Assembly: GCA_046712825.1 (NCBI GenBank)
Contig: JBKKCR010000096.1
Location: forward strand, 590 to 64,589
DNA: 64,000 nt
Reading direction: 5' to 3'
From: Actinomycetota bacterium
GTDB lineage: Bacteria; Actinomycetota; AC-67
A program made the translations under genes and the position numbers. This document shows, piece after piece, positions 915 through 62,331 of this stretch; within the stretch, counting starts at the first letter, position 1, and every line of letters starts with the position of its first letter. The notes under the pieces were generated by a model. That model searched no databases, had not been told where the DNA came from, and worked only from the letters and a program-made list of their open reading frames with translations.

Positions 915-930
915 CGCGAACACTTCCGGA

Positions 931-5944: not shown

Positions 5945-5948
5945 GGCT

Positions 5949-12041: not shown

Positions 12042-12308
12042 TTGCGGTCCAGGGCACGCGTCATCGTCGGCCTCGCAACGGCCTTGTGGCTGGCCGTCAT
12101 GCATTCGACCGCCTTCGCCCAGGGCTATCCCGGAGGCGGGAACACGCCCCCTCCCACGGTTGGTGGATCGAAGTTCTTCCCGGGCGACGACAAGCTTCCG
12201 CGTACGGGCACCGACCTTCTGCTGATCATCCTGGTCGCCCTCATCATCCTGTTCGTCGGGCTCGCGCTGCATCGGCTTTCTCGCCGCGCGAATCCAAGTG
12301 ACGGCTGA
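12042..12308 (+). CDS. Micro-protein with signal peptide, LPRTG motif, hydrophobic segment and basic tail (LPXTG-type sorting-signal architecture)
   Basis: Frame of ORF 12021..12308. The GC3 bias begins near TTG 12042, which sits 9 nt after GGAGG. Product: MRSRARVIVGLATALWLAVMHSTAFA|QGYPGGGNTPPPTVGGSKFFPGDDKLPRTG-TDLLLIILVALIILFVGLAL-HRLSRRANPSDG. Confidence 0.5.
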   Translation: MRSRARVIVGLATALWLAVMHSTAFAQGYPGGGNTPPPTVGGSKFFPGDDKLPRTGTDLLLIILVALIILFVGLALHRLSRRANPSDG

Positions 12309-14052: not shown

Positions 14053-14058
14053 AGCGTC

Positions 14059-15540: not shown

Positions 15541-15613
15541 GGCCCAAACGGTTGACCCCTTCTCCCTGCCCGGCCAGAATAGCGTCCTCTCCGGGGCCCG
15601 AGACGAGGGCGGC

Positions 15614-17463: not shown

Positions 17464-17482
17464 ACTCCGCCGGGAAAAGACG

Positions 17483-17508
17483 GCGGCCCCCGGTTTCCCG
17501 GGAGCCGC
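17483..17508. terminator. GC-rich hairpin (gcggcccccgg-tttc-ccgggagccgc) between convergent genes
   Basis: Read from the sequence; one mismatch in an 11-bp stem. Confidence 0.35.
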
Positions 17509-17581
17509 GTTGGAGCATCCCTCGCAGGCTATAGGGATGATTCGCTATTTCCGGGCGGACTCCTGCTTGCGAAGAGAAGTC

Positions 17582-21272: not shown

Positions 21273-21291
21273 CAACCCACGGTGGGCGGCG

Positions 21292-31591: not shown

Positions 31592-31604
31592 CTCGTTGCC
31601 CGCC

Positions 31605-32477: not shown

Positions 32478-32559
32478 CGGTCTCCAGGCTCTCGCTACAG
32501 GCACGGGGTGACCCGTCCGAGGCATTCTACCGGCGGGTTTCGACCTGCAGGGTAGGCTG

Positions 32560-33411
32560 TTGCGGTTCGGCTTCTTGATGGAGGATCGAGTGGATCGAAG
32601 CGATCGTTCCGGGCTCGCGGGTGCGAAAGTGGTCGCCCACAAGGCGCTCGCGTGGGCGAAGCGTCACGAAGCCGAGGGAGCACGAGCGATCTACGGCGCA
32701 CGCCGCGCCGCGTTCATCGCGCGGATGAAGGTCCAGGCCGCGTGGCAAGGGGCCCAGGTCGACGTCGAGGTCGCTCCCGACGTCCGATTCGGCAAGGACA
32801 TCGCGATCACGGTCTGGCCGGGCTCGCGCAACAGCATCCGCATCGGAGCGGGTTCGCGCATCGGCGACCGCGTGCTCTTCATCCTGAACGACGGACGCAT
32901 CGACCTCGGCGACAACGTCGAAGTGCGCAGGGACAGCACGTTCATGATGTGGGGGGGCTCGCTCGAGCTCGCAGGCGACAACATCCTGTCGTGGGGCAAC
33001 GTGATCCATTGCGCGTCGTCGATCCGGCTCGGCAGGATGACGTCCACCAACGAGTGGGTCACGATCGTCGACTCGAGCCACTACTTCACCACGCCCGACG
33101 AGTTCTTCTACCACAACACCAAAACCGGCCCGATCGAAGTCGGCAAGAACACGTGGATCTGCTCCAAGGCGACGCTGGCGCGCAACGCGAAGATCGGCGA
33201 TCACTGCATCATCGCGGGCAACTCGATCGTGAGCGGCGAGGTCCCCTCGGGGCACCTCGCGTCGGGCGTCCCCGCGCAGGTCGTTCGCGAGCTGGAGCTG
33301 CCGTGGAGACAGTCGGCCCCAACGCTGGTGGGCGCGACGGAACCTCGCAAGCCGGCGAAGCGCCGTCCCGCCGCGCGCAAGCCGCCGAAGCCGGCCGAGC
33401 CGACCGACTAG
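32560..33411 (+). CDS. Left-handed beta-helix (hexapeptide-repeat) acyl/acetyltransferase
   Basis: Repeated [LIV]G-x-x-x-x-[LIV] hexads: IGAGSRIGDRVLF, DLGDNVEV, IGDHCIIAGNSIVSGEVP. Confidence 0.7.
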   Translation: MRFGFLMEDRVDRSDRSGLAGAKVVAHKALAWAKRHEAEGARAIYGARRAAFIARMKVQAAWQGAQVDVEVAPDVRFGKDIAITVWPGSRNSIRIGAGSRIGDRVLFILNDGRIDLGDNVEVRRDSTFMMWGGSLELAGDNILSWGNVIHCASSIRLGRMTSTNEWVTIVDSSHYFTTPDEFFYHNTKTGPIEVGKNTWICSKATLARNAKIGDHCIIAGNSIVSGEVPSGHLASGVPAQVVRELELPWRQSAPTLVGATEPRKPAKRRPAARKPPKPAEPTD

Positions 33412-36784: not shown

Positions 36785-38533
36785 TCATGCCGATGCTGCG
36801 CTGGGCTCCCCGGATCCGATGTAGCCCTCACGCTCGAGGTGCAACACGATCTGCTGGGCGGCTTCCTCAGGCGTGAGCTCGGTGGTATCGATCGTGATGT
36901 CGGCGTCCACGGGCTCCTCGTATGGATCCGAGATCCCGGTAAACTCCTTGAGGATCCCGGCGCGGGCCTTGGCGTAGAGCCCCTTCCGGTCGCGCTCCTC
37001 GCAGATCTCGAGCGGCGTCGCGACGTGGATCAGCACGAACCCGCCCATCGGCTCGATCATCCCGCGCACCTCTTTGCGGATGCTGTCGTAGGGCGCGATC
37101 GGGGCACAGATCGCTATGCCGCCGTTCTTGGTGATCTCGGACGCCACATAGCCGATGCGACGGATGTTGATGTCGCGATGCTCGCGGGAGAAGCCGAGCT
37201 CCGAAGACAGGTTCTTGCGAACCAGATCCCCATCGAGCATCGTGACCGGCCGCCCGCCCATCTCGAGGAACTTCACGAACAGCGCGTTCGCGATCGTCGA
37301 CTTCCCCGATCCCGACAGCCCGGTGAAGAAGACTGTGAGTCCCTGCTTGTGCCGCGCCGGATGCGTCTTGCGTAGCTCGGTGACGACCTCGGGGAACGAG
37401 AACCAGCTCGGGATATCGCGACCGTCCCCGAGCCGTTCGCGCAGCTCGGTTCCCGAGATATCGAGCACGCGCTCGCCTTCGGGCACCTCGTCCTCGGGGA
37501 AGTACGTGTCCCGGTCGGGCACGTAGAGCATCTGGCGGAACGGCACCATCCCGACGCCCAGTTCCTCCTCGTACTTCCGGAGCAGGTCCTGCGCGTCGTA
37601 GGGGCCGTAGTAGGGCGTTCCCTCGGGATCCTTGCCCGGTCCGGCGTGGTCGCGTCCCACGATGAAATGGGTGCAGCCGTGGTTCTTGCGGATGATCGCG
37701 TGCCAGACGGCCTCACGCGGTCCGGCCATGCGCATCGCCAGCGGCAGCAACGCCAGCTTCGCCGAGTACGACGGATAGCGATGCATGAGCGCCTCATAAC
37801 AGCGGACGCGTGTGTAGTGGTCGACGTCGCCGGGCTTGGTCATCCCGACCACCGGGTGCACGAGTAGGTTCGCCTCGAGCTCCTTGGAGGCGCGCAGCGT
37901 CAGCTCGAAATGCGCGCGGTGCATCGGGTTCCGCGTCTGGAACGCGACGATCTGCCGCCACCCCAGTCGCGAGAACTCCTCTCGGAGCTGCCGTGGCCCG
38001 AGGCGAAGTCCCGTGTAGTCGTAATGGATCGGCAGTTGGAGCCCCTCGATCTTGCCGCCAACGAACCACGCGTGCGTGCGGTCGGCCAGGTGCCCGACGC
38101 CGGGATGAGAGGTGTCGGTGTTTCCGTACACCTGCTCTGCCTCGGCCATCCGATCCGGCTTCCACACGTCGGTGATGTGGAGGACGGCGAGCATGACGCC
38201 TTCGGGATCCCGCAGCGCGAGCGCAGCGCCCGACCCGAGGCCCTTCGCGACGTCCTCGGTGACGTCGAGCACGACGGGGATGGGCCACAGCGTGCCGTCC
38301 GCCAAGCGCATGCGCTCGCAGACCTCCCGATGGTCCGCCTCCCCCATGAACCCCTCAAGCGGAGAGAAGCCGCCGGTGAGCAAGAGTTCCAGGTCGCAGA
38401 TCTGGCGGGGGGTCAGGTCCCAGGACGGCCATTCGCGGGAGGCGACCTTGAGCTGTGCCGAGCGGTTCTCGTCGGTCATGAGGTCGACGAGGCTGCCGCC
38501 GTGGGGCGGGATGAGATGGTCTTGGGCGCTCAC
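36785..38533 (-). CDS. Bifunctional sulfate adenylyltransferase (ATP sulfurylase) / adenylylsulfate kinase = PAPS synthase
   Basis: N-terminal sulfurylase (QTRNPMHRAHFEL, HFIVGRDHAGPG) plus C-terminal APS kinase (GLSGSGKSTIA Walker A, DGDLVRKNLSSELGFS). Confidence 0.85.
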   Translation of the reverse strand: MSAQDHLIPPHGGSLVDLMTDENRSAQLKVASREWPSWDLTPRQICDLELLLTGGFSPLEGFMGEADHREVCERMRLADGTLWPIPVVLDVTEDVAKGLGSGAALALRDPEGVMLAVLHITDVWKPDRMAEAEQVYGNTDTSHPGVGHLADRTHAWFVGGKIEGLQLPIHYDYTGLRLGPRQLREEFSRLGWRQIVAFQTRNPMHRAHFELTLRASKELEANLLVHPVVGMTKPGDVDHYTRVRCYEALMHRYPSYSAKLALLPLAMRMAGPREAVWHAIIRKNHGCTHFIVGRDHAGPGKDPEGTPYYGPYDAQDLLRKYEEELGVGMVPFRQMLYVPDRDTYFPEDEVPEGERVLDISGTELRERLGDGRDIPSWFSFPEVVTELRKTHPARHKQGLTVFFTGLSGSGKSTIANALFVKFLEMGGRPVTMLDGDLVRKNLSSELGFSREHRDINIRRIGYVASEITKNGGIAICAPIAPYDSIRKEVRGMIEPMGGFVLIHVATPLEICEERDRKGLYAKARAGILKEFTGISDPYEEPVDADITIDTTELTPEEAAQQIVLHLEREGYIGSGEPSAASA

Positions 38534-38729: not shown

Positions 38730-39575
38730 GTGGGACACCAGATGGCCTCAGTTCCGGTCGAACAAGGGTTCGAGCTGCGCGGAGAGCGCAGCCGCTTGTC
38801 CACGCTCGTTCGCGACCTGTGGCGCTCTCGCGAGCTCGTCATCATGCTGGCGCGCAAGGACTTCTTCGTCCGCTACCGCCGCGCGTCGCTCGGAATCATC
38901 TGGGCCATCGGCCTTCCACTCGTCCAGGCGTCCGTCTTCGCCTTCGTCCTGAGTCAGTTCGCTCGGTTCGAGACACCCATCCCCTTCGCGGTCTTCGTTT
39001 TCTCGGGCGTCCTTCCGTGGAGCTTCTTCAACAACGCGGTGACGATGGGTACCACCTCGATCATCGACGGGTCGGCGCTTGCGACGAAGATCTACTTCCC
39101 GAGGGCTGTCTTGCCGCTCGTAACGGTCTTCTCGGGTTTCTACGGACTGATTATCGGCATCGTGGTCATGGTCGCGATGGCCGGCGCATTCGGCGCGCCG
39201 CTCGGCCTTCCGCTGCTCCTCCTGGTGCCGGCGATGGCGCTGCTCGTACTGCTCGCTTCCGGATTCGCTCTGATCCTGGGAGCGCTCCAGGTCTACTTCC
39301 GCGACATCAAGCACGTGATAGCGGCGATCACGCTGCCGTGGTTCTGGGCCTCCGGCGTCTTCTACCCCCAATCGGTCCTGAGTGAGGACTTCCGCCGCCT
39401 GATAGCGATCAATCCTGCGGTCGGGATGATCTCGCTTTTCCGAGCCGCGATCGGCTCCGCCCCCGCCGGCTGGGAGACGAGCGTCTTTTGGTCGATCGGC
39501 TGGGTCGTTGCGTTGTTCGTCCTCGCGGCCGTTCTGTACCGGCGCTGGGACCGAGTATGCGTGGATCTCCTGTGA
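38730..39575 (+). CDS. wzm: ABC-2 type polysaccharide exporter permease (Wzm/TagG-like)
   Basis: LWRSRELVIMLARKDFFVRYRRASLGIIWAIGLP (ABC-2 signature), 6 TM. Confidence 0.8.
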   Translation: MGHQMASVPVEQGFELRGERSRLSTLVRDLWRSRELVIMLARKDFFVRYRRASLGIIWAIGLPLVQASVFAFVLSQFARFETPIPFAVFVFSGVLPWSFFNNAVTMGTTSIIDGSALATKIYFPRAVLPLVTVFSGFYGLIIGIVVMVAMAGAFGAPLGLPLLLLVPAMALLVLLASGFALILGALQVYFRDIKHVIAAITLPWFWASGVFYPQSVLSEDFRRLIAINPAVGMISLFRAAIGSAPAGWETSVFWSIGWVVALFVLAAVLYRRWDRVCVDLL

Positions 39576-39600
39576 CGAGGAGACCGAAGGGCTCGCGCGC

Positions 39601-40845
39601 ATGACGCAGCGCGGCCGCGTCCATCTCGACGATGCCGGAAAGCGGTACGTCAAGTACGACGACGTCCCTCTTCTGCTCACCCGCGCGTTGCGTTTCCGCG
39701 CGGGGCACAAGAAAACCCATCTCTGGGCGGTCCGGCATGTAAACCTGATGGTAGAGCCTGGGGAGACCGTCGGCGTCATCGGACGCAACGGCTCGGGAAA
39801 ATCCACGATGTTGCGGATGCTCGCCGGGGTAACGGCCCCGACGGAGGGGGTCGTGACCGTTCACGGGCGCGTCGCGCCGCTCATCTCCGTCGGCGTGGGT
39901 TTCCACCCCGAGCTGACCGGACGCGAGAACGTGTACGTCAACGCGACGGTGCTCGGCATGCGGCGTAAAGAGATCGACCAGCTCTTCGATTCGATCCTCG
40001 AGTTCTCCGAGATCGAGAATTTCATCGACACCCCCGTCAAGTTCTACTCGTCGGGGATGTTCGTGCGACTCGGCTTCGCCGTCGCGGTCGCTGCGCGGCC
40101 GGACGTGCTCCTGATCGACGAGGTGCTCGCCGTCGGCGACGTCGCCTTCCAGGCCAAGTGCTTCGACCGCATGGAGGAGATCCGCAGTCAGGGGACGAGC
40201 GTGCTCGTCGTCAGCCACAACCTGAACGCCGTCCGGCTGCTGTGTAAAAGGACCCTCGTTCTGCACAACGGCGAGATGAAGTTCCTCGGCGACACCGATG
40301 CGGCGATCTCCCTGTACCACGAACTACTCGCGGTCCCCGTCGAGGAGCCGTCCGAGCCGGGCAACCAGGCGGCTCCCGTCCGGATCGAATCGTTCGCCAT
40401 GGTGGGGGAGAACGGGCTGGCGACCAACCATGTGAAGTTCGGTGAGGACGTGGCCTTCGTGCTCGAAGCGGAATTCCTGGCCGCCGTGCCTCGCCCGGCC
40501 TTCTCGTTCGTCCTCGCCAACGAGAAAGGCCAGATCGTCTACTCCGACGACGCGCACAACGCGGAGTTCCAGCGCTCATACCAGGCGGGAGAACGGGCAC
40601 GGTTCGAGGCGAGGATCCGAGCTACCCTTCCGACCGGCACATACAAAGCGCGCTGCGCGGTTCGATGGAAGGTCGGCGAAGAGGTCGACCGCGCCGCGCG
40701 CTACGTCACCTTCTTCGTGTCGGGGCGTCCGTTGGTGAAAGGCCTCGCCGATCTCGAGGCGGCGTTCACGGTTGAAGGAGGGTCGTCGGCCCTCACGGAG
40801 GCCGAGGCGACGCCGGTCGAACCGCTCGAGTCGGACGCGGGGTAG
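39601..40845 (+). CDS. wzt: ABC exporter ATPase (Wzt/TagH-like) with C-terminal carbohydrate-binding (Wzt_C-like) domain
   Basis: GVIGRNGSGKSTMLRMLAG, LSGG-equivalent YSSGMFVRLGFAVA, D-loop; ~190-aa C-terminal beta-rich extension. Confidence 0.8.
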   Translation: MTQRGRVHLDDAGKRYVKYDDVPLLLTRALRFRAGHKKTHLWAVRHVNLMVEPGETVGVIGRNGSGKSTMLRMLAGVTAPTEGVVTVHGRVAPLISVGVGFHPELTGRENVYVNATVLGMRRKEIDQLFDSILEFSEIENFIDTPVKFYSSGMFVRLGFAVAVAARPDVLLIDEVLAVGDVAFQAKCFDRMEEIRSQGTSVLVVSHNLNAVRLLCKRTLVLHNGEMKFLGDTDAAISLYHELLAVPVEEPSEPGNQAAPVRIESFAMVGENGLATNHVKFGEDVAFVLEAEFLAAVPRPAFSFVLANEKGQIVYSDDAHNAEFQRSYQAGERARFEARIRATLPTGTYKARCAVRWKVGEEVDRAARYVTFFVSGRPLVKGLADLEAAFTVEGGSSALTEAEATPVEPLESDAG

Positions 40846-54349: not shown

Positions 54350-56251
54350 ATGCATGGGCGTATCCGGGTCGTGCTCCTTGTCGGCAGCATCGTCGCGGCG
54401 GGTCTCGGCGTCGCAGCGGCGGCGCCATCGCCCGTCCACCCGCTCCCGCACCCCCTTCCCGAGCCCGGCTTTCTCGAGCCCGTCCCGGCAGGCGAGTGCA
54501 CGTCCACGAACGAGTACGAGTCCAAGCTATGGTCCGGCTACGGGGACAAGTGCAAGCGGCTCCACTTCGTCTTCGGCCCGATCATCGCGAAGCCCGGCCA
54601 GAACGACGTCCTCATCGAGCCGGTCACCATCCAGAAGCCGGCCTACGACGGATACATCGTGCGGTTCCGGCCCGACCTGGTGGACGTGACCGGGCAGCCC
54701 CCGCCGATCGAGGAGATCCACCTCCACCATGCCACTTGGCTGAACGTCTATCCGCAATACGGCAGCGGCCCCTTCTTCGCCGCCGGTGAGGAGAAGACGA
54801 TCGCCACCTTCCCGCCGGGCTACGGCATGCACGTCGGCGCGACCGACACGTGGCTGCTGCTCTACATGGTGCACAACGCGATCCAGTCGCCGCGGCCGGT
54901 CTGGATCACCTACGACGTCGACTTCGTTGCCGAGGAGGACGCCGAGGCGCTCGGAATCGTTCCGGTGAAGCCGGTCTGGCTGGACGTGCAGCAGAAGCCG
55001 ATCGCCCCCGGTGCGACGGATACGGGCGGCAACCCGGTGTTCAACGTTCAGCGCGGGTTCGGCGCCACCGACTCGGCGCTCTTCGGCGATCCGGCCATCG
55101 GTGCGGGTACCGGACGGAACGTGTGCTCGTGGCCCGAACAGAACTGCGCGCGCCATGACGTCTACGGCAATGTGACGCCGCAACAAGGCGTGCCGATCAC
55201 GGTCCCCGGTGCCGACTGGACGGTGGGGGAAGGCTTCGAAGGCACGTTGATCGGGATCGGCGGGCACCTGCATCCCGGTGGGATCCGCGACGAGGTGAGC
55301 CTCGTCCGGAACGGCGTCGAGAAACCGATCTTCTTCTCTGAGGCCGTCCCGTGGGAGCACAACGACATCAACGGCAACGGGAAGATCGACGCAGGCGTCT
55401 ACGACGAGCTGGACTCGTGGGACTTCTCGATGACGGTGACCGGCTCGACGCTGGGATGGAAGGTCAAGATCAAGGAAGGCGACGTCCTCCGGCTCAACGC
55501 GATCTACGACTCCCAGAACGCCTCGTGGTACGAGAACATGGGGATCGTCGTCGCGATGGTCGCCCCCGCGGAGACGGAGCGGGAAGATGCGCTTCACAAC
55601 GGACCAGGCGTCGACGTCTTCGACGACAACGTGATCCTGGATCAGGGACTGCCGGTGATGGCGACGGAGGCTCCAGGATGGCCGACGCCGTCGTGCGCGC
55701 CCGACGCGGTGAGCGCGACGAAGCGGCTCTGCCTGCGCGGTCAGGTGACGCACGGGCACATGGAGGAGGCCAGCCACCATGGCGGCGCCGCAGGACCGGC
55801 CCTCCCGGAGGCGCCCGGGCCGATGGTCGACCAGCTCGTTTCAGTCGGGTTCACGTACGGGCAGGCGGACCTCGGTCTCGCGGGAACCATGGGCGTCCCG
55901 CAGCTGAAGCTCGGGAAGTCGGCGCGTTTCTGGAACCTCGATTCGCCGCTCGATATCTGGCACACCTGGACCCGCTGCAAGGAACCGTGCACCGGCGGTA
56001 CGGGGATCTCGTATCCGCTCGCGAACGGCGGAACCGGGCTGAGCGACACGATGGACTTCGATTCGACCGAGATCGGCTACGGCCTGTTCTTTTCTCCGGC
56101 GAGCGGCCAGCTGGGCGGCCCGAACAAGTCGACGGGCGAGGCGCTGCAGGATGGGCTCTTCTGGGACTTCACGCCATCCCAGACCGGCACGTTCTCGCTG
56201 TTCTGCCGGATCCATCCGTTCATGCGCGGCGTGTTCCAAGTCGTGGAGTAA
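54350..56251 (+). CDS. Secreted His-rich 633-aa protein with C-terminal cupredoxin-like (type-1 Cu) domain
   Basis: Start re-assigned inside ORF 53804..56251 to MHGRIRVVLLVGSIVAAGLGVAAAAPSP (signal peptide; the upstream part is antisense to the GT4). His clusters EIHLHHATW, GGHLHPGG; C-terminus ...NLDSPLDIWH...FSLFCRIHPFMRGVFQVV (H...C-x-x-H-x-x-M). Confidence 0.55.
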   Translation: MHGRIRVVLLVGSIVAAGLGVAAAAPSPVHPLPHPLPEPGFLEPVPAGECTSTNEYESKLWSGYGDKCKRLHFVFGPIIAKPGQNDVLIEPVTIQKPAYDGYIVRFRPDLVDVTGQPPPIEEIHLHHATWLNVYPQYGSGPFFAAGEEKTIATFPPGYGMHVGATDTWLLLYMVHNAIQSPRPVWITYDVDFVAEEDAEALGIVPVKPVWLDVQQKPIAPGATDTGGNPVFNVQRGFGATDSALFGDPAIGAGTGRNVCSWPEQNCARHDVYGNVTPQQGVPITVPGADWTVGEGFEGTLIGIGGHLHPGGIRDEVSLVRNGVEKPIFFSEAVPWEHNDINGNGKIDAGVYDELDSWDFSMTVTGSTLGWKVKIKEGDVLRLNAIYDSQNASWYENMGIVVAMVAPAETEREDALHNGPGVDVFDDNVILDQGLPVMATEAPGWPTPSCAPDAVSATKRLCLRGQVTHGHMEEASHHGGAAGPALPEAPGPMVDQLVSVGFTYGQADLGLAGTMGVPQLKLGKSARFWNLDSPLDIWHTWTRCKEPCTGGTGISYPLANGGTGLSDTMDFDSTEIGYGLFFSPASGQLGGPNKSTGEALQDGLFWDFTPSQTGTFSLFCRIHPFMRGVFQVVE

Positions 56252-56263: not shown

Positions 56264-56629
56264 ATGAGATCTCGCACCGACAAGCGTCGTGGTTCCGTGT
56301 TGATCGCGCTCGTCGCGGTGGTCGCCGTGCTGGCGATGCTGACGCCGGCGAGCGCCGCACCGTCGTTCGTGGTCGCCGGGCCCGGCAACGCCGCCTCGCC
56401 CGTCTACTACACGCCGTTCGTCGTTCTGCAGAAGGGTCAGCCGCTCAACTTCGTCAACCTCGATATCGCGCCTCACGATGTTCGCTCGACGAGCGGCCTG
56501 TTCTTCTCTGCCTTGATCACCATCGGCAAGAAGACGGCGGTCAATGGCGTCCAGAACCTGGCGAAGGGTTCCTACAAGTTCTACTGCTCGCTCCACCCGA
56601 TCATGAAAGGCACGCTCCGGGTCATCTGA
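56264..56629 (+). CDS. Small secreted cupredoxin (plastocyanin/amicyanin-like blue copper protein)
   Basis: Signal peptide; NFVNLDIAPHDV (His ligand) ... YKFYCSLHPIMKGTLRV (Cys-His-Met ligands). Confidence 0.7.
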   Translation: MRSRTDKRRGSVLIALVAVVAVLAMLTPASAAPSFVVAGPGNAASPVYYTPFVVLQKGQPLNFVNLDIAPHDVRSTSGLFFSALITIGKKTAVNGVQNLAKGSYKFYCSLHPIMKGTLRVI

Positions 56630-56651: not shown

Positions 56652-58418
56652 ATGCTCAACTGGAAACGCTCCTGGCCGGAACTGTCCGAGGATCTGCCGT
56701 TGGATGTAACGCCGTATTCGAACGGTGAGTTCATCCCACCGCCGCCGACCGAGAAGCAGAAGCTCATCATGCGGCTCGCGAACGAAGAGTCCGAGCGGCT
56801 GCGCCGCAAGATGGGGATGTCCCGTCGCCAGTTCGTGCGCACCGCCGCTGCGTACACCGTGGGCCTATGGGCGATCAATCAGGTCGGATTGCGGTTCGGA
56901 AGCGACGCCGGCGCCGACAACACCGAGACGACCGCTCCGTGCGACCTCGAGTGGGAGGGCGCGAGCGGCGTCGCAACGCTCGGCAACATGCCCGGCGAGT
57001 TCATCTTCGACATCCAAAGTCACCACATCGACGCCAACGGCCTCTGGCGGGTGAAGAACCCGGCGTTCGAGGTGTTCTTCGCGGCCGCGTGGTCGCAGGC
57101 CGGCCCGACCGGCGGCTGGCCGGGCGTTCGTCCGGACGGGACGATCCGCGGGTTCGGCGCCGGGGAGCTCGACCCGATCGCCAATCTGTCCCGCTACCAC
57201 TACGTCAAGGAGATGTACCTCGACAGCGCGACGAACATGTGCGTGCTCTCGGCCGTGCCGTCTTCGCCTGAGAATCAGCCGTTGCCGATCATGGAAGCCG
57301 CGGAGACCGTGGCGATGGTCAACGAGATGGCCGGCGGCACCCAGCGCGCCGTCATGCACGCGTTCGTGATGCCCAACCGCGGCGCGTACGGCACCAATCA
57401 GGCTCCCGTCGGTCCGAAGCCGCTGTACATGCAGGAGGAGTTCGACGCGATGGAGGAGATCGCCGGCCTCTACGGGCCCGGCGGCTCGAACATCCTCCGC
57501 GGCTGGAAGACGTACTGCCCGTGGGGCGACGTTCCGAACGCGACCGGATGGATGTTCGACGACCGGGTCGGCGAGGCGTTCATCGCGCAGGTTCGTCACG
57601 TCGGCGACACGCTCGGCGCACCCAAGGTCATCGCGACGCACAAGGGGTTCGCGCTTCCGGGCTTCGACCAGCGCGCCGCCTCTCCCCGCGACATCGGTCC
57701 GGCCGCGAAGCAGAATCCCGATATCGCTTTCATCGTGTACCACTCGGGCTACGACATCGGGGACTCGCAAGGCCCGTATCCGACGCCGAACTTCGTGACG
57801 CGGCAGGGACGCGGCATCGATTCGCTGATCAAGAGCCTCATCGACGCGGGGCACGACGCGGCCGTCTACGTTCCGGCCGGCAAGACCTTCGGCAACGTCC
57901 CGAACGTCTATGCCGAGCTCGGCTCGGTGTGGTCGGGCGTGATGTCGGATCAGTTCGAGGCTGCGCATCTGCTCGGCAAGCTCATCAAGTACGTCGGCCC
58001 GAAGCGCGTCGTATGGGGAACCGACAGCATCTGGGGCGGATCGCCTCAAGGCATGATCGCCCGTCTCCGCGAGTTCCCGCGCGCCAACGAGACACAGGCG
58101 CTCGAGATCTTCAACAGCTACGGGATGCCGTGGGCGCTGGAAGGCGACGTCGAGGACCCGACGGTCAAGGCTCCGACCCCGGAACGGACGATCCGCAACG
58201 CGATCCTCGGGCGCAACGCCGCGGTGCCGTATGGGATCGACCCGGACGCACAGCGCAACGCGATCAACTGTGATGACCTTCATCGCACTCGGGACGACTA
58301 CATAGTCGACGTCGGCACGATGCAGGAATCGGCTCCGATGCGTTCGAACGTCGTCTACGGCTACCGGAGCCGTCGCGAGCTGTTCCGCGACCTGGCCTCG
58401 AAGCCCTGGGCACCGTAG
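56652..58418 (+). CDS. Tat-exported metal-dependent hydrolase, Amidohydro_2 (TIM-barrel) family
   Basis: Twin-arginine motif MSRRQFVRTAAAYTVGLWA (the true start may be ATG ~56811); ...VYHSGYD..., VVWGTDSIWGG. Confidence 0.6.
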   Translation: MLNWKRSWPELSEDLPLDVTPYSNGEFIPPPPTEKQKLIMRLANEESERLRRKMGMSRRQFVRTAAAYTVGLWAINQVGLRFGSDAGADNTETTAPCDLEWEGASGVATLGNMPGEFIFDIQSHHIDANGLWRVKNPAFEVFFAAAWSQAGPTGGWPGVRPDGTIRGFGAGELDPIANLSRYHYVKEMYLDSATNMCVLSAVPSSPENQPLPIMEAAETVAMVNEMAGGTQRAVMHAFVMPNRGAYGTNQAPVGPKPLYMQEEFDAMEEIAGLYGPGGSNILRGWKTYCPWGDVPNATGWMFDDRVGEAFIAQVRHVGDTLGAPKVIATHKGFALPGFDQRAASPRDIGPAAKQNPDIAFIVYHSGYDIGDSQGPYPTPNFVTRQGRGIDSLIKSLIDAGHDAAVYVPAGKTFGNVPNVYAELGSVWSGVMSDQFEAAHLLGKLIKYVGPKRVVWGTDSIWGGSPQGMIARLREFPRANETQALEIFNSYGMPWALEGDVEDPTVKAPTPERTIRNAILGRNAAVPYGIDPDAQRNAINCDDLHRTRDDYIVDVGTMQESAPMRSNVVYGYRSRRELFRDLASKPWAP

Positions 58419-58422: not shown

Positions 58423-60348
58423 ATGACGAGGCGCATGGTCTTCCGTGCGGCGCTTCTCGCCGTCGCTCTAGCGGCCGTCGTCGTTGCGCCTGGTGCCGGA
58501 GTTGCGGCCGCGACCTGTGCTCCCACGACGACCTCGACGGGCGACCCATGGCCCGGCGGTGAGTGGCGATGGTATGGCCACGATTACTCGAACTCACGGA
58601 GTCAGCCCGAGGAGACCGTGATCGGAGCGGACAACGTCCGTGATCTCGGTCCCGCCTGGGTCTTCTCCACGTCCAACGCCGTCGCCGACGGCGGCGGGTT
58701 CAGCAACACGCCGGTCGTCGCCGACGGATGCGTCTACCTGGCTTCGAACACCGGCTGGGTCTTCTCGCTCAACGCCGACACGGGCGAGCTGCTTTGGAGC
58801 ACGAAGCTCACGGGCGAAGGGCAGACGCTCGTTGGTGGTGTCATCGTTGGCTCGCCGACCGTCGTCAACGGGCTCGTGTTCTTGGGCGTGAGTCAGCCCG
58901 GCGCCCCCTACGTCGCCGCGCTAGACCAGGCGACGGGGGAAGTCCTTTGGACCACCGTCGTCGAGACCGGCCAGCCGAGCTCGTTCATCAACGCCGGACC
59001 GTTGTACTTCGACGGCATGATCCTTCAGGGCTTCGCGGGCTTCGAAGGGAACACGGAGGTCTCGCGCGGCGGGTTCGCCGTCGTCGATGCCGGGCGCGAG
59101 TGCGAATCGAGTTCGGTCACCGTCTGCACCGACTCGATCGCCGGCGCGCTCGGCGGTCGGGTCCTCGCCCATCAGCACACGATCCCCGACGACCTCTACG
59201 CTGAGGGGTTCCGGGGCGCTTCGTTCTGGTGCACGCCGTCGCTCGACGTCGAATCCCGCTACGCCTTCGGCTGCGGCGGGAACCCGCACAGCGAGGGCAT
59301 GGAGGCTCCGCACGCGAACTCTTTGTTCAAGATCGACCTCGATCGGAACCGGCCGACCTTCGGGACGATCGTCGACCACTACAAGGGCAACGTCGATCAG
59401 TACTACCCGGGCATCGATAAGCAGCCGGTATGCGAGAACTTCCGCGACGAGACGACCGTGGTCGTGTGGAGCCTCGGGTGCTTCATGCTCGACCTCGACT
59501 TCGGGGGGTCGCCGAACCTGTTCCGCAACGCGGCGGGTCGCCTGGTGATCGGCGATCTGCAGAAGTCGGGTGTGTACCACGCCGCCTACGCGGACGATAT
59601 GACCGCCGCGTGGAAAGCGATCGTCGGCGTGCCGTGCTTCAGCTGTAACGGGACGTCGGGGGCGTTCGACGGCGAGGGCATCTACACGGTGGGCACACCC
59701 CCGAGCCAGCTCGTCGGTCTCGATCGCGAAGGTGGCGCGGCTCCGTACAAGTGGGTGACGCCGATCCTCGACCTCATCCACTATCAGTCGGTGACCGTCG
59801 CGAACGGTGTCGTCTACGTCATGGACAACCTCGGCTCGCTCAACGCGGTCGACGCCCGCACCGGCGTGCCGCTCCTCAAGCGGCCGCTTACGCTCGACGC
59901 CGAGGGGGAGATCGCGACGGATGCGGGGAGCAGCGCGGGCGTTTCCGTGGCTCGCAACACGGTGTACGCGGCGGCGAGCGAGTTCGTCGTCGCCTACAAG
60001 GTCGGCGGTGAAGGCGGCGGCCCCAGTCTTCCCGGCCTGCCTTCGCTGCCCGGCATCGGCGGCGGGGTCCCGGTCGTCGCCGGCCCCGGCGCAGCAGCCG
60101 CGACGTATCTCACGCCCGTTTCGCTCGTGCAGGCCGACGCTCCGTCGCTGTCGTTCCTGAACCTCGATATCGCACAGCACGACGTGGATCACAAGCCTGC
60201 GGCCGGCCAGCCGAAGCTGTTCGACAGCCCGCTCATCGGGACCGGTCAGACGGCCCAGGTCACGTTTACCGGCCCGCTCGAGGCGGGAACCTACGACTTT
60301 TACTGCTCGATACACCCCAATATGTTCGGGAAGCTGATCGCGACATAG
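58423..60348 (+). CDS. Secreted PQQ-dehydrogenase-like 8-bladed beta-propeller fused to a C-terminal cupredoxin domain
   Basis: Signal peptide; WRWYGHDYSNSRSQPEETVIGADNVRDLGPAWVFST (quinoprotein-ADH N-terminal signature); PQQ-type repeats (NADTGELLWST, ALDQATGEVLWTT, AVDARTGVPLL); C-terminus FLNLDIAQHDV...YDFYCSIHPNMFGKLIA. Confidence 0.65.
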   Translation: MTRRMVFRAALLAVALAAVVVAPGAGVAAATCAPTTTSTGDPWPGGEWRWYGHDYSNSRSQPEETVIGADNVRDLGPAWVFSTSNAVADGGGFSNTPVVADGCVYLASNTGWVFSLNADTGELLWSTKLTGEGQTLVGGVIVGSPTVVNGLVFLGVSQPGAPYVAALDQATGEVLWTTVVETGQPSSFINAGPLYFDGMILQGFAGFEGNTEVSRGGFAVVDAGRECESSSVTVCTDSIAGALGGRVLAHQHTIPDDLYAEGFRGASFWCTPSLDVESRYAFGCGGNPHSEGMEAPHANSLFKIDLDRNRPTFGTIVDHYKGNVDQYYPGIDKQPVCENFRDETTVVVWSLGCFMLDLDFGGSPNLFRNAAGRLVIGDLQKSGVYHAAYADDMTAAWKAIVGVPCFSCNGTSGAFDGEGIYTVGTPPSQLVGLDREGGAAPYKWVTPILDLIHYQSVTVANGVVYVMDNLGSLNAVDARTGVPLLKRPLTLDAEGEIATDAGSSAGVSVARNTVYAAASEFVVAYKVGGEGGGPSLPGLPSLPGIGGGVPVVAGPGAAAATYLTPVSLVQADAPSLSFLNLDIAQHDVDHKPAAGQPKLFDSPLIGTGQTAQVTFTGPLEAGTYDFYCSIHPNMFGKLIAT

Positions 60349-61164: not shown

Positions 61165-62331
61165 CTAGGCTGCGCGCCGGCGCGACTTCCGCTTGGCCGC
61201 CTTCAAGCTCCTGTGAAGCGCATCCCCGACGGAAGGCATGGATTCCGGGAGGCCCTTCAAGAACGCAAGAAGGGTCGCCTCGTCCGGGCGAAGCCGGTCG
61301 TCTGGCTCCGAGCCGTTCTTCCTCGCCCGTCGGCGAGGCAACGTAACGAGTGAGCCGTCGAGGTAGGCGTCGACGATCGCGGGATGCACGTAGCACGCGC
61401 GGCACACCGCGACCGTGTTCCCGAGGGTCGACGCGACCGTCTCGATGGCGGCAAGGATATTGCTCTTGGTCTCGCGGTCCGACGTCGCCGGCGCCGCGTC
61501 TCGCAGCGCCCGCAACGCGAGCACCGTTCCGGCCCAGGTGCGGAAGTCTTTCGCAGTGAAGTCCTCGTCGGTCGACGCCCGCAGGTAGGCATTCACGTCC
61601 TCGGAGTCGATCGGCTTCCTCTCGCCCGACTCGTCGAGGTACTGGAAAAGGTGCTGGCCGGGGATCTCCTGACACCGCTTGACGATGCGCGCGACTCGTT
61701 GATCGCGGAGGTCGACCGTGTGCATCTTGCCGCTCTTGCCGCGGAACTCGAACCGGATCGTCGAGCCCGACACGTCCACGTGGCGGCCTCGCATCGTCGT
61801 CAACCCGAACGACCCGTTGTCCTTGGCATAGCGCGTGTTGCCGACACGGATATACGTGAGGTCGATCAGGCGCACGACGGTCGCAAGAACCTTTTCGCGC
61901 GGGAGCCCCGGCAAGCTCATGTCCTCACGGACGTGCTTGCGGATCGCCGGCAAGGCTTCACCGAATGCCGCTAGGCGGTTGTACTTCGTCTGATCGCGGG
62001 TCTGTCGCCAAGCCCGGTGGTAGCGGTATTGCTTGCGGCCGCGCGCGTCCCGGCCCGTCGCCTGGATGTGTCCGCGGGGCGAAGGGCAGATCCAGATGTC
62101 GATCCACGCGGGCGGCACGGCCAGCGCCTTGATGCGGTGAAGGTCCGCCTTGTCGCGGATGGGCTTCCCGTCGGGGCCGATGTAGGAGAAGCCGCGGCCG
62201 GAGCGTTTCCGACGGATCCCCGGGGCCTCGTCGACGACGTAGATCAGCCCGGCATCGTGTGCGGCTTCGACGGCCGGATCCTCGACCGGCGCGCGCACGG
62301 TCCTTTGAGTACGATTCGTCTTCTTCGTCAT
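61165..62331 (-). CDS. DNA topoisomerase IB (poxvirus/bacterial TopIB type)
   Basis: ...RVGNTRYAKDNGSFGLTTMRGRHVDVSGSTIRFEFRGKSGK... matches the TopIB N-terminal and catalytic-domain pattern; ~388 aa with a basic C-terminal tail. Confidence 0.7.
   Translation of the reverse strand: MTKKTNRTQRTVRAPVEDPAVEAAHDAGLIYVVDEAPGIRRKRSGRGFSYIGPDGKPIRDKADLHRIKALAVPPAWIDIWICPSPRGHIQATGRDARGRKQYRYHRAWRQTRDQTKYNRLAAFGEALPAIRKHVREDMSLPGLPREKVLATVVRLIDLTYIRVGNTRYAKDNGSFGLTTMRGRHVDVSGSTIRFEFRGKSGKMHTVDLRDQRVARIVKRCQEIPGQHLFQYLDESGERKPIDSEDVNAYLRASTDEDFTAKDFRTWAGTVLALRALRDAAPATSDRETKSNILAAIETVASTLGNTVAVCRACYVHPAIVDAYLDGSLVTLPRRRARKNGSEPDDRLRPDEATLLAFLKGLPESMPSVGDALHRSLKAAKRKSRRRAA

What the first reader, a model, noticed from the sequence alone, without database searches (positions are those of the whole stretch)
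58423..60348. PQQ-dehydrogenase-like beta-propeller fused to its presumptive cupredoxin electron acceptor
The N-terminal WxWYGHDYSNSRSQ…NV..L..AWVFST and repeated A.D..TG..LW motifs match the quinoprotein dehydrogenase propeller. The last ~100 aa form a cupredoxin (AQHDV…YDFYCSIHPNMFGKLIA). Quinohemoproteins with fused cytochrome c are known; a fused blue-copper acceptor is, to my knowledge, rare or undescribed.
Basis: partly seen in the sequence, partly recalled or inferred. Interest (0 to 1): 0.6.

Follow-up and report, generated by a model that had tools for sequence, protein, structure and literature searches.

The report
Quinoprotein-like propeller with tethered cupredoxin
A secreted protein of an uncultured soil actinobacterium joins a PQQ-dehydrogenase-type propeller to a blue-copper electron carrier, and it nearly always sits beside a copper monooxygenase carrying the same kind of carrier, which points to an undescribed, self-wired extracellular oxidation system.

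Summary
ORF 58423-60348 (+) encodes 641 aa: a signal peptide, an eight-bladed propeller whose closest structures are PQQ alcohol/methanol dehydrogenases, a Gly/Pro linker, and an amicyanin-like cupredoxin with all four type-1 copper ligands (H586, C628, H631, M634).

The propeller keeps the equivalents of the metal ligands (E208, N287), the PQQ-stacking Trp (W269), an invariant Asp pair at the catalytic-base position (D357/D359) and the Arg331 equivalent (K381). It lacks the vicinal Cys pair and scores far below the curated family cut-off. PQQ binding and PQQ supply could not be tested.

The gene ends a tight four-gene operon:
- a PHM/dopamine-beta-hydroxylase-like two-copper monooxygenase with its own C-terminal cupredoxin
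- a free cupredoxin
- a TAT-exported amidohydrolase-2 protein
- this protein

In species-representative genomes, 18 of 18 fused homologs with enough upstream DNA have the monooxygenase next door. None of 25 homologs without a nearby cupredoxin do. Two divergent proteins fuse monooxygenase, cupredoxin, propeller and cupredoxin into one chain.

Best reading: a quinoprotein-type dehydrogenase whose tethered cupredoxin passes electrons to the copper monooxygenase. It is a new variant of a known kind. The cofactor, substrate and electron path are inferred.

The parts
54350..56251 (+). First gene of the operon: secreted PHM/dopamine-beta-hydroxylase-like two-copper monooxygenase with a C-terminal cupredoxin (633 aa). 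Candidate CuH ligands H126/H127 (H124 of the HLHH motif is also invariant) plus H175. Candidate CuM ligands H306, H308, M397. Cupredoxin ligands H538, C619, H622, M625.
   Evidence: ATG at 54350 preceded by GGAGG. The His and Met residues are invariant in 30 of 30 homologs (whose numbering is one lower). In the model (pLDDT 76, pTM 0.80) the best PDB folds are human dopamine beta-hydroxylase 4zel (E 3e-8) and about 30 PHM entries. There is no Pfam hit apart from weak SURNod19 and Copper-bind matches.
56264..56629 (+). Free amicyanin-like cupredoxin, 121 aa, with a signal peptide. Ligands lie in APHDV ... YCSLHPIM.
   Evidence: Cupredoxin_1 E 2e-7 and Copper-bind E 7e-5. It is 48% identical to the cupredoxin domain of the target (E 1e-19). 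Its start lies 12 nt after the previous stop and has an AAGGAGG ribosome-binding site.
56652..58418 (+). Amidohydrolase-2-superfamily protein, 588 aa. It has a twin-arginine motif (SRRQFVR) after a conserved N-terminal extension of about 55 aa.
   Evidence: Amidohydro_2 PF04909 matches 21 of 21 family members (best E 8e-11) and TAT_signal matches 4 of 21. The window copy scores 24.4 bits against a 26.4 cut-off. Invariant residues: D120, Q122, H124, H125, H330, K331, H364, D458. No homolog by sequence in the PDB.
58423..60348 (+). The target gene: signal peptide, PQQ-dehydrogenase-type propeller, linker and cupredoxin (641 aa plus stop).
   Evidence: The start lies 4 nt after the stop of the previous gene.
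58423..58512 (+). Signal peptide (residues 1-30, MTRRMVFRAALLAVALAAVVVAPGAGVAAA), followed by the invariant C32.
   Evidence: Hydrophobic helix at residues 2-20 in the model. C32 is present in 117 of 121 sequences and covaries with C103. Five covarying Cys pairs indicate an extracytoplasmic protein. The export route (Sec or TAT) is not decided.
58513..60006 (+). Eight-bladed propeller (residues 31-528). Candidate active-site residues: E208 (59044-59046), W269 (59227-59229), N287 (59281-59283), D357 (59491-59493), D359 (59497-59499), K381 (59563-59565).
   Evidence: Blades from DSSP. Fold hits. E208 to E177, W269 to W243 and N287 to N261 of MxaF, from HMM and HHalign alignments. K381 to R331 from a register test. 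D357 and D359 tie for the D303 position. Conservation counts.
60007..60069 (+). Flexible Gly/Pro-rich tether (residues 529-549, GEGGGPSLPGLPSLPGIGGGV).
   Evidence: pLDDT below 50 for residues 531-547. Variable in length and sequence across the alignment.
60070..60345 (+). Amicyanin-like type-1 copper domain (residues 550-641). Ligands: H586 (60178-60180), C628 (60304-60306), H631 (60313-60315), M634 (60322-60324).

Best explanation
The protein is a secreted quinoprotein-type dehydrogenase. Its propeller oxidises an alcohol, aldehyde or hemiacetal-type substrate at a PQQ/metal site, with D357 or D359 as the base.

The two electrons leave one at a time through the type-1 copper domain that is tethered to the C-terminus by a flexible Gly/Pro linker of about 20 residues. 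That cupredoxin then reduces the cupredoxin domain of the PHM/dopamine-beta-hydroxylase-like copper monooxygenase encoded three genes upstream. Transfer may be direct or go through the free 121-aa cupredoxin. In this scheme the dehydrogenase takes the role that ascorbate plays for the animal enzymes, supplying the two electrons the monooxygenase needs to activate O2.

The TAT-exported amidohydrolase-2 protein encoded between them handles a hydrolytic step of the same pathway.

What is shown: the domain architecture, the intact copper ligands, the fold and homology, the conservation of part of the PQQ/metal pocket, the strict gene linkage, and the natural four-domain fusion.

What is inferred: that PQQ is bound, the direction and route of electron flow, the substrate, and the order of the reactions.
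For: 1. Fold and homology. The best PDB folds are quino(hemo)protein alcohol/methanol dehydrogenases. HHalign against a PQQ-ADH alignment gives probability 99.95%.

2. Pocket residues. E208, W269 and N287 align with the Ca ligand E177, the stacking Trp W243 and the Ca ligand N261 of MxaF. K381 aligns with R331 in the clearly best register. The invariant D357-L-D359-F-G lies just before strand A of blade 5, where D303 lies in MxaF. W269, N287, D357, D359 and K381 are present in 121 of 121 family sequences.

3. The cupredoxin is complete. All four ligands are kept in 35 of 35 fused members, and a cupredoxin is a dedicated electron-transfer module.

4. The fusion has a partner-gene origin. Unfused homologs have one or two cupredoxin genes directly downstream (L004, L006, L014-L026). 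These are 36% identical to the fused domain.

5. Linkage. Among the 80 best loci of species-representative genomes, 18 of 18 fused loci with more than 4.5 kb of upstream DNA carry the monooxygenase gene and 17 of 18 the amidohydrolase gene. The figure is 0 of 25 for loci without a nearby cupredoxin. No other neighbour is conserved.

6. Rosetta-stone fusions. L050 (7571-11788) and P0261 (1211 aa) are only 63% identical to each other. Both encode monooxygenase, cupredoxin, Pro-rich linker, propeller and cupredoxin in one chain, without the propeller's signal peptide.

7. The neighbour has the invariant HH + H and HxH + M pattern and the fold of PHM/DBH. By established knowledge of that family, these enzymes need two externally supplied electrons per turnover.

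8. Precedent. A fungal PQQ pyranose dehydrogenase with a built-in cytochrome domain drives a copper monooxygenase (LPMO) (PMC5960967, found).
Against: - PQQ binding is untested. The C103-C104 pair, the R109 equivalent and the W540 loop of MxaF are absent.
- The score is 79.8 bits against the 480-bit cut-off of TIGR03075.
- No pqq genes are in the 64-kb window or in about 1.4 Mb of related loci, as far as the conserved-neighbour analysis can tell.
- From my own knowledge, PQQ enzymes are unusual in Actinomycetota, and PQQ-less relatives of these propellers exist: tetrathionate hydrolase (hit) and the NCBIfam model named acido-empty-quinoprotein.
- The alignment of the second half of the propeller is ambiguous. 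Global HHalign misplaces blade 5, and D357 and D359 cannot be told apart.
- No redox potentials, docking geometry or expression data are available. The substrate is unknown.
- All members come from uncultured organisms.
Confidence: 0.5

Rival explanations
1. It is a quinoprotein dehydrogenase, but the tethered cupredoxin feeds the respiratory chain. The route would run from blue copper to a cytochrome or terminal oxidase, as amicyanin does for methylamine dehydrogenase. The neighbouring monooxygenase would be only a pathway partner that gets its electrons elsewhere.
For: - The cupredoxin is most similar to amicyanin, a respiratory shuttle.
- The same evidence for a PQQ-type site applies.
- A free cupredoxin is encoded in this operon, which could serve as a diffusible shuttle.
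Against: - The module is self-contained. No cytochrome, oxidase or membrane partner is conserved next to it.
- Most fused loci lack a free cupredoxin (28 of 31).
- The monooxygenase carries its own cupredoxin and is fused to the propeller in two divergent proteins. That fits internal electron hand-over better.
Confidence: 0.2
2. The propeller has no PQQ and does a non-redox step, such as a lyase, hydrolase or substrate-binding role. It would play the part that the propeller-shaped PAL domain plays after PHM in animal peptide amidation. Its cupredoxin would be just one more relay for reducing the monooxygenase from an outside donor.
For: - The four-domain fusion (monooxygenase followed by propeller) echoes the PHM-PAL order of bifunctional PAM (the PAM architecture is from established knowledge).
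- PQQ-less members of this fold exist: tetrathionate hydrolase 6l8a/7cqy is among the hits.
- Several PQQ-contacting features are missing.
- No pqq genes were seen.
Against: - The residues that are kept are the metal-ligand, stacking-Trp, base and Arg/Lys positions of the dehydrogenases, and they are invariant.
- The cupredoxin genes follow the propeller gene in unfused loci, not the monooxygenase, which already has its own.
- PAL is a six-bladed Zn enzyme with a His triad. Here only H386 and H453 are conserved His residues in the propeller.
Confidence: 0.17
3. It is part of a copper-homeostasis or copper-resistance cluster, in which cupredoxins and a PQQ_2-type propeller handle periplasmic Cu(I)/Cu(II).
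For: - The Myxococcus xanthus curA copper-tolerance operon contains a cupredoxin protein, a multicopper oxidase and a lipoprotein with PQQ_2 domains (PMC3707914).
- A multicopper oxidase gene lies about 3.5 kb upstream of the unfused homolog in L004.
Against: - No P-type ATPase, CopC/CopD, CusF or copper-sensor gene is in the conserved module.
- The conserved partners are a PHM-type monooxygenase and an amidohydrolase, which are catalytic enzymes.
- The multicopper oxidase is not a conserved neighbour.
Confidence: 0.04
4. It is a BamB-like structural propeller, as many database annotations say, with an unrelated cupredoxin appended.
For: Several source annotations call homologs 'outer membrane protein assembly factor BamB'. 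BamB chains are the top phmmer hits by repeat similarity.
Against: - BamB matches cover only the repeated blade motif of residues 76-192.
- BamB equivalog scores are 56 and 54 bits against cut-offs of 423 and 285.
- The fold ranks PQQ dehydrogenases first.
- The N-terminal dehydrogenase-specific segment and the pocket residues are present.
- By inference from the MAG names, the hosts are Actinomycetota, which have no BAM machinery.
Confidence: 0.01

Closest known systems
Type II/III quinohemoprotein alcohol dehydrogenases (for example ADH IIB of Pseudomonas putida HK5, 1kv9; qhEDH of Comamonas testosteroni, 1kb0; Gluconobacter ADH subunit I, 8gy2)
   Same: An eight-bladed PQQ-type propeller is followed by a flexible linker and a C-terminal one-electron carrier domain. 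These are the best structural matches (E 1e-22 to 7e-22). The N-terminal segment, the Ca-ligand Glu and Asn, and the stacking Trp all align.
   Different: - The carrier is a type-1 copper domain, not a haem c domain; there is no CxxCH motif.
- Only 15-16% identity.
- The propeller is about 100 residues shorter.
- No vicinal Cys-Cys pair.
- The score is far below the family cut-off.
- The hosts are Actinomycetota rather than Proteobacteria.
Methylamine dehydrogenase with amicyanin (for example 1mg2, 2gc4); also azurin as acceptor of quinohemoprotein ADH IIB (from memory)
   Same: A quinone-cofactor dehydrogenase built on a propeller hands single electrons to a blue copper protein. The fused domain's closest solved relatives are amicyanins, with the same Cys-x2-His-x2-Met loop.
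   Different: - There the copper protein is a separate, diffusible partner and the cofactor (TTQ) sits on a small subunit.
- Here the copper domain is covalently tethered and no light-subunit or mau genes are present.
- The amicyanin equivalog score is 30.8 bits against a 110.2 cut-off.
Fungal AA12 PQQ-dependent pyranose dehydrogenase with a fused AA8 cytochrome b domain, which drives lytic polysaccharide monooxygenases (PMC5960967)
   Same: This is the closest functional analogue of the proposed mechanism. A secreted PQQ dehydrogenase with a built-in electron-transfer domain reduces a secreted copper monooxygenase.
   Different: - A six-bladed propeller of another family, with a cytochrome b carrier.
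- The recipient is a mono-copper LPMO, not a two-copper PHM-type enzyme.
- A eukaryotic system with unlinked genes and no gene fusion of donor and acceptor.
PHM / dopamine beta-hydroxylase / tyramine beta-monooxygenase (for the neighbour and proposed electron recipient)
   Same: Same fold (4zel, 1phm) and the same invariant HH + H / HxH + M ligand pattern.
   Different: - A bacterial, secreted protein with an added C-terminal cupredoxin.
- No match to the Pfam models of the animal enzymes; only weak SURNod19 hits in 9 of 30 members.
- The animal enzymes are reduced by ascorbate.
Cupredoxin-tethered copper enzymes (NirK with an extra cupredoxin or cytochrome domain, 6hbe; Nitrosopumilus multicopper oxidase with a C-terminal cupredoxin, 9cck) and N2O reductase (propeller plus C-terminal CuA cupredoxin)
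   Same: A catalytic domain is covalently linked to a cupredoxin-fold electron-transfer domain. 9cck and 6hbe appear among the weak hits. NosZ shares the propeller-then-cupredoxin order (from established knowledge).
   Different: - The catalytic domains are unrelated.
- NosZ has a seven-bladed propeller with a His-rich CuZ site and a binuclear CuA centre. Here only two His are conserved in the propeller, and the copper site is mononuclear type 1.
Uncharacterised 'PQQ-binding-like beta-propeller repeat proteins' of Proteobacteria (for example Paraburkholderia BEI72397.1), and the polyvinyl-alcohol dehydrogenase label given to some homologs
   Same: The closest annotated relatives in cultured bacteria: 25-27% identity over 84-87% of the propeller. 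They share the D-Y-D-F-G-x-G-P-N and K-S-G-V-Y motifs. JGI labels five homologs polyvinyl alcohol dehydrogenase (cytochrome).
   Different: - No cupredoxin and no monooxygenase neighbour.
- The function is unknown.
- I could not check the polyvinyl-alcohol dehydrogenase label against a characterised sequence.

Membership tests
PQQ-dependent dehydrogenase, methanol/ethanol family (TIGR03075; quino(hemo)protein ADH/MDH) | Eight-bladed beta-propeller of the quinoprotein type | tested here: met
   The model has eight four-stranded blades. The top 12 Foldseek PDB hits are PQQ ADH/MDH/sorbose dehydrogenases.
PQQ-dependent dehydrogenase, methanol/ethanol family (TIGR03075; quino(hemo)protein ADH/MDH) | Score above the curated family cut-off over the whole model | tested here: not met
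   79.8 bits against a cut-off of 480. Only model positions 19-289 of 530 are matched.
PQQ-dependent dehydrogenase, methanol/ethanol family (TIGR03075; quino(hemo)protein ADH/MDH) | Metal ligands equivalent to Glu177 and Asn261 of MxaF | tested here: met
   E208 and N287 align in three independent alignments. N287 is present in 121 of 121 and E208 in 98 of 121 sequences; in one subgroup the Glu is shifted by two columns.
PQQ-dependent dehydrogenase, methanol/ethanol family (TIGR03075; quino(hemo)protein ADH/MDH) | Trp stacking on PQQ (Trp243 of MxaF) | tested here: met
   W269 aligns with W243 and is present in 121 of 121 sequences.
PQQ-dependent dehydrogenase, methanol/ethanol family (TIGR03075; quino(hemo)protein ADH/MDH) | Catalytic base Asp303, and Arg331/Lys at the end of the next strand | tested here: inconclusive
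   K381 to R331 is the clearly best register (score 2.2 against -12 or lower). D357 and D359 tie for D303 (-7.6 against -7.1). Both are invariant. Global HHalign misplaces this region. No 3D superposition was available.
PQQ-dependent dehydrogenase, methanol/ethanol family (TIGR03075; quino(hemo)protein ADH/MDH) | Vicinal Cys103-Cys104 disulphide over PQQ | tested here: not met
   No adjacent Cys pair exists. The Cys residues are at 32, 103, 227, 235, 270, 284, 337, 353, 405, 408 and 628. The aligned segment reads IVGSP.
PQQ-dependent dehydrogenase, methanol/ethanol family (TIGR03075; quino(hemo)protein ADH/MDH) | Bound PQQ, and a source of PQQ (pqqA-E or uptake) | not testable with these tools
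   No pqq genes were found among the ORFs of the window. Whole genomes could not be searched.
Quinohemoprotein ADH (type II/III) | C-terminal cytochrome c domain with a CxxCH motif | tested here: not met
   No CxxCH motif in the protein. The C-terminal domain is a cupredoxin.
BamB/YfgL (TIGR03300, NF008351) | Score above the equivalog cut-off; a lipoprotein of the Gram-negative BAM complex | tested here: not met
   53.8 bits against 285.2 and 56.2 against 423. Matches are limited to the blade repeats of residues 76-192. All homologs come from Actinomycetota or Chloroflexota MAGs.
Type-1 (blue) copper protein, plastocyanin/azurin family (PF00127) | Pfam score above the gathering cut-off | tested here: met
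   27.1 bits against 21.2.
Type-1 (blue) copper protein, plastocyanin/azurin family (PF00127) | His, Cys, His, Met ligand set in the canonical positions | tested here: met
   H586, C628, H631 and M634 align with the ligands of amicyanin. They are kept in 35 of 35 fused family members.
Amicyanin proper (TIGR02657 equivalog) | Score above the equivalog cut-off and association with methylamine dehydrogenase genes | tested here: not met
   30.8 bits against 110.2. No methylamine dehydrogenase genes are in the operon or window. The domain is amicyanin-like, not amicyanin.
PHM/DBM-type two-copper monooxygenase (neighbour gene 54350-56251) | CuH (His-His + His) and CuM (His-x-His + Met) ligand pattern on a two-domain beta-sandwich fold | tested here: met
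   The HLHH motif, H175, the HLH motif and M397 are invariant in 30 of 30 homologs (numbering). The fold hits are 4zel and PHM entries with probability 1.00. Assignment of individual ligands rests on pattern, not on superposition.
PHM/DBM-type two-copper monooxygenase (neighbour gene 54350-56251) | Match to the Pfam Cu2_monooxygen / Cu2_monoox_C models | tested here: not met
   No such hit in any of 30 members. Only weak SURNod19 hits in 9 of 30 (best E 0.0098).

The most novel reading that the evidence does not exclude
The three conserved proteins form a closed, cofactor-wired extracellular oxidation cascade that needs no outside reductant.

1. The PHM-type copper monooxygenase hydroxylates a C-H bond of an unknown, probably polymeric or amide/ether-type substrate.
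2. The amidohydrolase-2 enzyme and the propeller dehydrogenase process the hydroxylated product.
3. The two electrons released by the dehydrogenase are handed back, from cupredoxin to cupredoxin, to re-reduce the monooxygenase.

The net reaction is substrate + O2 giving a carbonyl or cleavage product + H2O. In Chloroflexota the donor and the acceptor have even become a single polypeptide of about 1,200 residues.

This would be a new type of self-sufficient copper monooxygenase system, and the first quinoprotein-like dehydrogenases wired through blue copper in Gram-positive soil bacteria. The cofactor could be scavenged PQQ bound with Ca2+ or a lanthanide, given the invariant D-x-D motif.
Probability: 0.3. 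Interest if true: 0.85.

Novelty: new variant of a known kind. Interest (0 to 1): 0.68.

Why it matters
How bacterial and secreted copper monooxygenases get their electrons outside the cell is an open problem. It applies to LPMOs and to PHM-like enzymes that have no ascorbate supply.

This locus offers a genetically defined answer that can be tested directly. A dehydrogenase and a monooxygenase each carry a tethered blue-copper domain. The pairing was found in every case that could be checked, and the two are sometimes fused into one chain.

It would also extend quinoprotein-type dehydrogenases to abundant uncultured soil Actinomycetota (Thermoleophilia, Acidimicrobiia, Frankiales), where PQQ enzymology is almost unknown. 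It adds a third kind of built-in electron-transfer module, type-1 copper, to the known haem c and haem b ones. Such self-wired dehydrogenases are of interest for biosensors and bioelectrocatalysis.

If the propeller turns out to lack PQQ, the system is still a new bacterial relative of the PHM/PAL logic.

Tried and rejected

- An exact-sequence look-up of the window protein found no record.
- Sequence searches of the PDB found nothing for the monooxygenase catalytic part or for the amidohydrolase, with a single sequence or with a profile. The monooxygenase was identified only by fold and ligand pattern.
- The promoter/terminator scan was uninformative in this high-GC DNA.
- Literature searches for a PQQ/cupredoxin fusion, for Nod19/copper monooxygenase, for bacterial PHM homologs with a cupredoxin, and for PQQ in Thermoleophilia/Acidimicrobiia found no description of this protein or system.

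**Alignment limits**
- Global HHalign of the family against MxaF, alone or against four PQQ dehydrogenases, aligns the first four blades well. It then mis-threads the 42-residue loop before blade 5. I replaced it with a register test, which settles K381 but not D357 against D359.
- I therefore do not claim the lanthanide-type Asp, although D-x-D resembles the W-D-Y-D of XoxF-type enzymes.

**Readings rejected**
- BamB.
- Quinohemoprotein: no CxxCH motif.
- A NosZ-like or other copper-cluster propeller: only H386 and H453 are conserved His residues.
- True amicyanin.
- The acido-empty-quinoprotein family: 56.6 bits against a cut-off of 650.

**Neighbour and fusion surveys**
- Conserved-neighbour analysis of the 35 homolog loci without a cupredoxin found no shared partner gene; the best family occurred in 7 loci.
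- The same analysis of the cupredoxin-linked loci found nothing conserved beyond the three-enzyme module.
- Longer fusion proteins of the family carry no cytochrome or other recognisable redox domain.
- The polysaccharide-synthesis genes upstream are shared with one close relative (L001) only and are not part of the module.

Full report
**1. The observation**

The window is 64 kb of about 67% GC DNA. The ORF at 58423-60348 (+) starts with ATG and encodes 641 residues. Its codon-position GC pattern is that of real genes here.

- Pfam finds the PQQ propeller families in the N-terminal part (PF01011 E 1.6e-16, PF13360 E 8.2e-16). It finds the plastocyanin/azurin family at residues 601-638 (PF00127, 27.1 bits against a cut-off of 21.2).
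- NCBIfam aligns residues 46-321 with the first half of the methanol/ethanol-family PQQ dehydrogenase model and residues 562-639 with amicyanin. Both scores are well below the curated cut-offs.
- An AlphaFold2 model built on 42 homologs has mean pLDDT 85. It shows an N-terminal helix, eight four-stranded blades, a disordered Gly/Pro stretch (531-547) and a small beta-sandwich.

**2. The cupredoxin**

The last 98 residues align end to end with amicyanins (E about 2e-6). H586 lies on the upstream His ligand, and C628-S-I-H631-P-N-M634 lies on the Cys-x2-His-x2-Met ligand loop (coordinates).

Among the 120 best database homologs, 34 carry this domain. With the query that makes 35, and all 35 keep the four ligands. 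This is a complete type-1 copper site, so the domain is an electron carrier by every sequence criterion available. It is amicyanin-like but not amicyanin (30.8 bits against 110.2; no methylamine dehydrogenase genes).

**3. The propeller**

Foldseek against the PDB ranks twelve PQQ dehydrogenases first:
- Gluconobacter ADH 8gy2
- quinohemoproteins 1kb0, 1kv9 and 1yiq
- the lanthanide enzyme PedH
- MxaF 1w6s
- ExaA 1flg
- XoxF 6dam and 6oc5
- Methylophaga methanol dehydrogenase 5xm3
- sorbose dehydrogenase 4mh1

These have E 1e-22 to 5e-19, and BamB begins at rank 13. A family profile matches quinohemoprotein ADHs over profile positions 7-266. HHalign against four PQQ dehydrogenases gives 99.95% probability.

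I checked my recalled MxaF sequence against 1h4i (100% identical) and used its numbering. In three alignments:
- E208 falls on the Ca ligand Glu177
- W269 falls on the PQQ-stacking Trp243
- N287 falls on the Ca ligand Asn261

Beyond blade 4 the automatic alignments break down, because this family has a 42-residue loop where MxaF has ten residues. The blade order in the model places the invariant L-D357-L-D359-F-G-G just before strand A of blade 5, where W-D303-Y-A-G lies in MxaF. It places Q380-K381-S-G at the end of strand B, where D-R331-N-G lies. A column-score register test confirms K381 on Arg331. It cannot separate D357 from D359 as the Asp303 equivalent.

W269, N287, D357, D359 and K381 are present in all 121 sequences examined.

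Missing features are the vicinal Cys103-Cys104, the Arg109 equivalent and the Trp540 loop. Five covarying Cys pairs (32-103, 227-235, 270-284, 337-353, 405-408) fit a disulphide-bonded secreted protein.

My reading is that this is a divergent relative of the PQQ dehydrogenases that keeps the core of the cofactor/metal/base pocket. I do not file it as a member of the methanol/ethanol family, because the cut-off and the Cys-pair features are not met. PQQ binding itself is untested.

**4. The operon**

Four genes lie head to tail with gaps of 12, 22 and 4 nt.

- **54350-56251.** This gene encodes a secreted 633-aa protein with no Pfam family. Thirty homologs share an invariant H-L-H-H, a further His, H-L-H and a Met, plus a C-terminal cupredoxin with His/Cys/His/Met. 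In its model (pLDDT 76) the best PDB folds are human dopamine beta-hydroxylase and about thirty PHM entries (E 3e-8 to 1e-5, probability 1.00). The pattern HH + H / HxH + M is that of the CuH and CuM sites of that enzyme family (established knowledge). It is therefore a PHM/DBH-like two-copper monooxygenase with a tethered cupredoxin.
- **56264-56629.** A free cupredoxin, 48% identical to the target's copper domain.
- **56652-58418.** An amidohydrolase-2 protein with a twin-arginine motif.
- **58423-60348.** The target.

The rest of the window is a sulfated-polysaccharide biosynthesis island and an ABC transporter. No pqq genes were found.

**5. Evidence from relatives**

All named homologs come from metagenome-assembled genomes of Actinomycetota.

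A scan of one genome per species found 200 relatives. The best 80 are MAGs of Thermoleophilia (Solirubrobacterales, Thermoleophilaceae), Acidimicrobiales, Frankiales, Nitriliruptoraceae and Mycobacteriales, plus two Chloroflexota.

I searched these loci with profiles of the four gene families. The table shows the three classes of locus.

| Class of locus | Loci | With >4.5 kb upstream | Monooxygenase present | Amidohydrolase present |
|---|---|---|---|---|
| Propeller fused to cupredoxin | 31 | 18 | 18 of 18 | 17 of 18 |
| Unfused, separate cupredoxin gene within 3 kb | 13 | 10 | 7 of 10 | 5 of 10 |
| Unfused, no cupredoxin nearby | 36 | 25 | 0 of 25 | 0 of 25 |

The usual gene order in fused loci is monooxygenase, amidohydrolase, propeller::cupredoxin.

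Other findings from the relatives:
- The separate cupredoxins that directly follow unfused propeller genes are 36% identical to the fused domain and share its A-G-P-G...Y-x-T-P...N-L-D-x-A-x-H-D-V motif. The fusion therefore arose from an adjacent partner gene.
- No other neighbour is conserved.
- One Chloroflexota locus (L050, 7571-11788) and an independent protein, P0261, are 63% identical to each other. Each encodes monooxygenase, cupredoxin, Pro-rich linker, propeller and cupredoxin as one chain of about 1,200 residues. The propeller's signal peptide and its C32-C103 pair are both gone. Two divergent copies rule out an assembly artefact.
- At 50% clustering the family has 233 clusters with E at or below 1e-30.

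**6. Mechanism**

A cupredoxin has no known role other than one-electron transfer. Here it appears in three forms: fused, next door, or fused on both partners.

The one partner whose chemistry is understood, the PHM/DBH-type monooxygenase, consumes two electrons per turnover. A PQQ-type dehydrogenase releases two.

The most economical reading is therefore this chain: substrate oxidation at the propeller, then the tethered type-1 copper, then (optionally via the free cupredoxin) the cupredoxin of the monooxygenase, then its CuH/CuM sites and O2. The amidohydrolase would carry out a hydrolytic step of the same pathway.

The fungal PQQ pyranose dehydrogenase that drives LPMOs through a built-in cytochrome is a functional precedent (PMC5960967).

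Shown: the architecture, the ligands, the homology, the linkage and the fusions. Inferred: PQQ occupancy, the direction and route of electron flow, and the substrate.

A stronger version would have the dehydrogenase oxidise the monooxygenase's own product, so that the cascade needs no outside reductant. This is chemically attractive but unsupported by direct evidence. I give it about 0.3.

**7. Rivals**

- *A respiratory link through the cupredoxin* remains possible (0.2). It does not explain the self-contained module or the four-domain fusion.
- *A PQQ-less propeller acting as a lyase or hydrolase*, echoing the PHM-PAL arrangement, is the most serious alternative (about 0.17). PQQ-less relatives of this fold exist, some pocket features are missing, and no PQQ source was seen. 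Against it stand the invariant dehydrogenase-type pocket residues and the fact that the cupredoxin genes follow the propeller gene.
- *Copper homeostasis* and *BamB-like* readings are poorly supported.

**8. Novelty and verdict**

Quinoproteins with tethered haem domains, and copper enzymes with tethered cupredoxins, are both known. A PQQ-dehydrogenase-type propeller with a tethered type-1 copper domain was not found in any paper I could search, and neither was its obligate pairing with a cupredoxin-bearing PHM-like monooxygenase.

It is not rare in nature, only unstudied, because every carrier found is uncultured. I rate it a new variant of a known kind with interest 0.68. The main uncertainty is the cofactor.

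Noticed in passing
window 14059-53121: A large island for a sulfated, methylated surface polysaccharide. It holds four sulfotransferases (24968-26239, 26929-27792, 28944-29777, 30752-31699), two sulfatase-family genes (19866-21275, 31605-32642) and a bifunctional ATP sulfurylase/APS kinase (36785-38533). It also has Wzm/Wzt ABC export genes (38730-40845), two GH99-like genes, an O-antigen-ligase-like gene, and many GT1/GT2/GT4 and methyltransferase genes. Sulfated glycans are unusual for Actinomycetota.
   Followed up: partly
L050 7571-11788; protein P0261: Natural four-domain proteins of about 1,200 aa: PHM-like monooxygenase, cupredoxin, Pro-rich linker, PQQ-type propeller, cupredoxin. One is from a Chloroflexota MAG and one from the protein collection, and they are 63% identical to each other.
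   Followed up: yes
L001 3661-5715; L002 11973-14066: In two close relatives, a gene for a soluble glucose/sorbosone-dehydrogenase-family protein (PF07995, another PQQ-type propeller family) with PKD domains lies directly beside the module. It is absent from the window.
   Followed up: no
L025 (CAZLKN010000056.1) 377-17822: An array of at least six paralogous propeller genes of this family on both strands, interspersed with several small cupredoxin genes.
   Followed up: no
L004 11566-12030: One of the two cupredoxin genes following an unfused propeller has Phe where the second His copper ligand should be (YCTVFPDM). It may not bind copper in the usual way.
   Followed up: no
window 56652-56830: The amidohydrolase-2 protein has an N-terminal extension of about 55 residues before its twin-arginine motif. 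The extension is conserved in relatives with only 53-60% overall identity, so it is probably translated and functional.
   Followed up: partly
window 61165-62331 (-): A bacterial type IB topoisomerase gene (Topoisom_I E 8e-41 with the bacterial N-terminal domain). It is followed by STAS and ATP-dependent DNA ligase genes in the same order as in relatives L001 and L002.
   Followed up: no
proteins P0254, P0267, P0299, P0305, P0311, P0338: Members of the propeller family with long extra regions (840-1,720 aa) that have no Pfam match, apart from an acetoacetate-decarboxylase-like domain in P0305. They could be further fusions or gene-call extensions.
   Followed up: partly
L031 715-6229: Two tandem paralogs of the monooxygenase::cupredoxin gene precede the fused propeller gene in a Frankiaceae MAG, and no amidohydrolase gene lies between them.
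   Followed up: no
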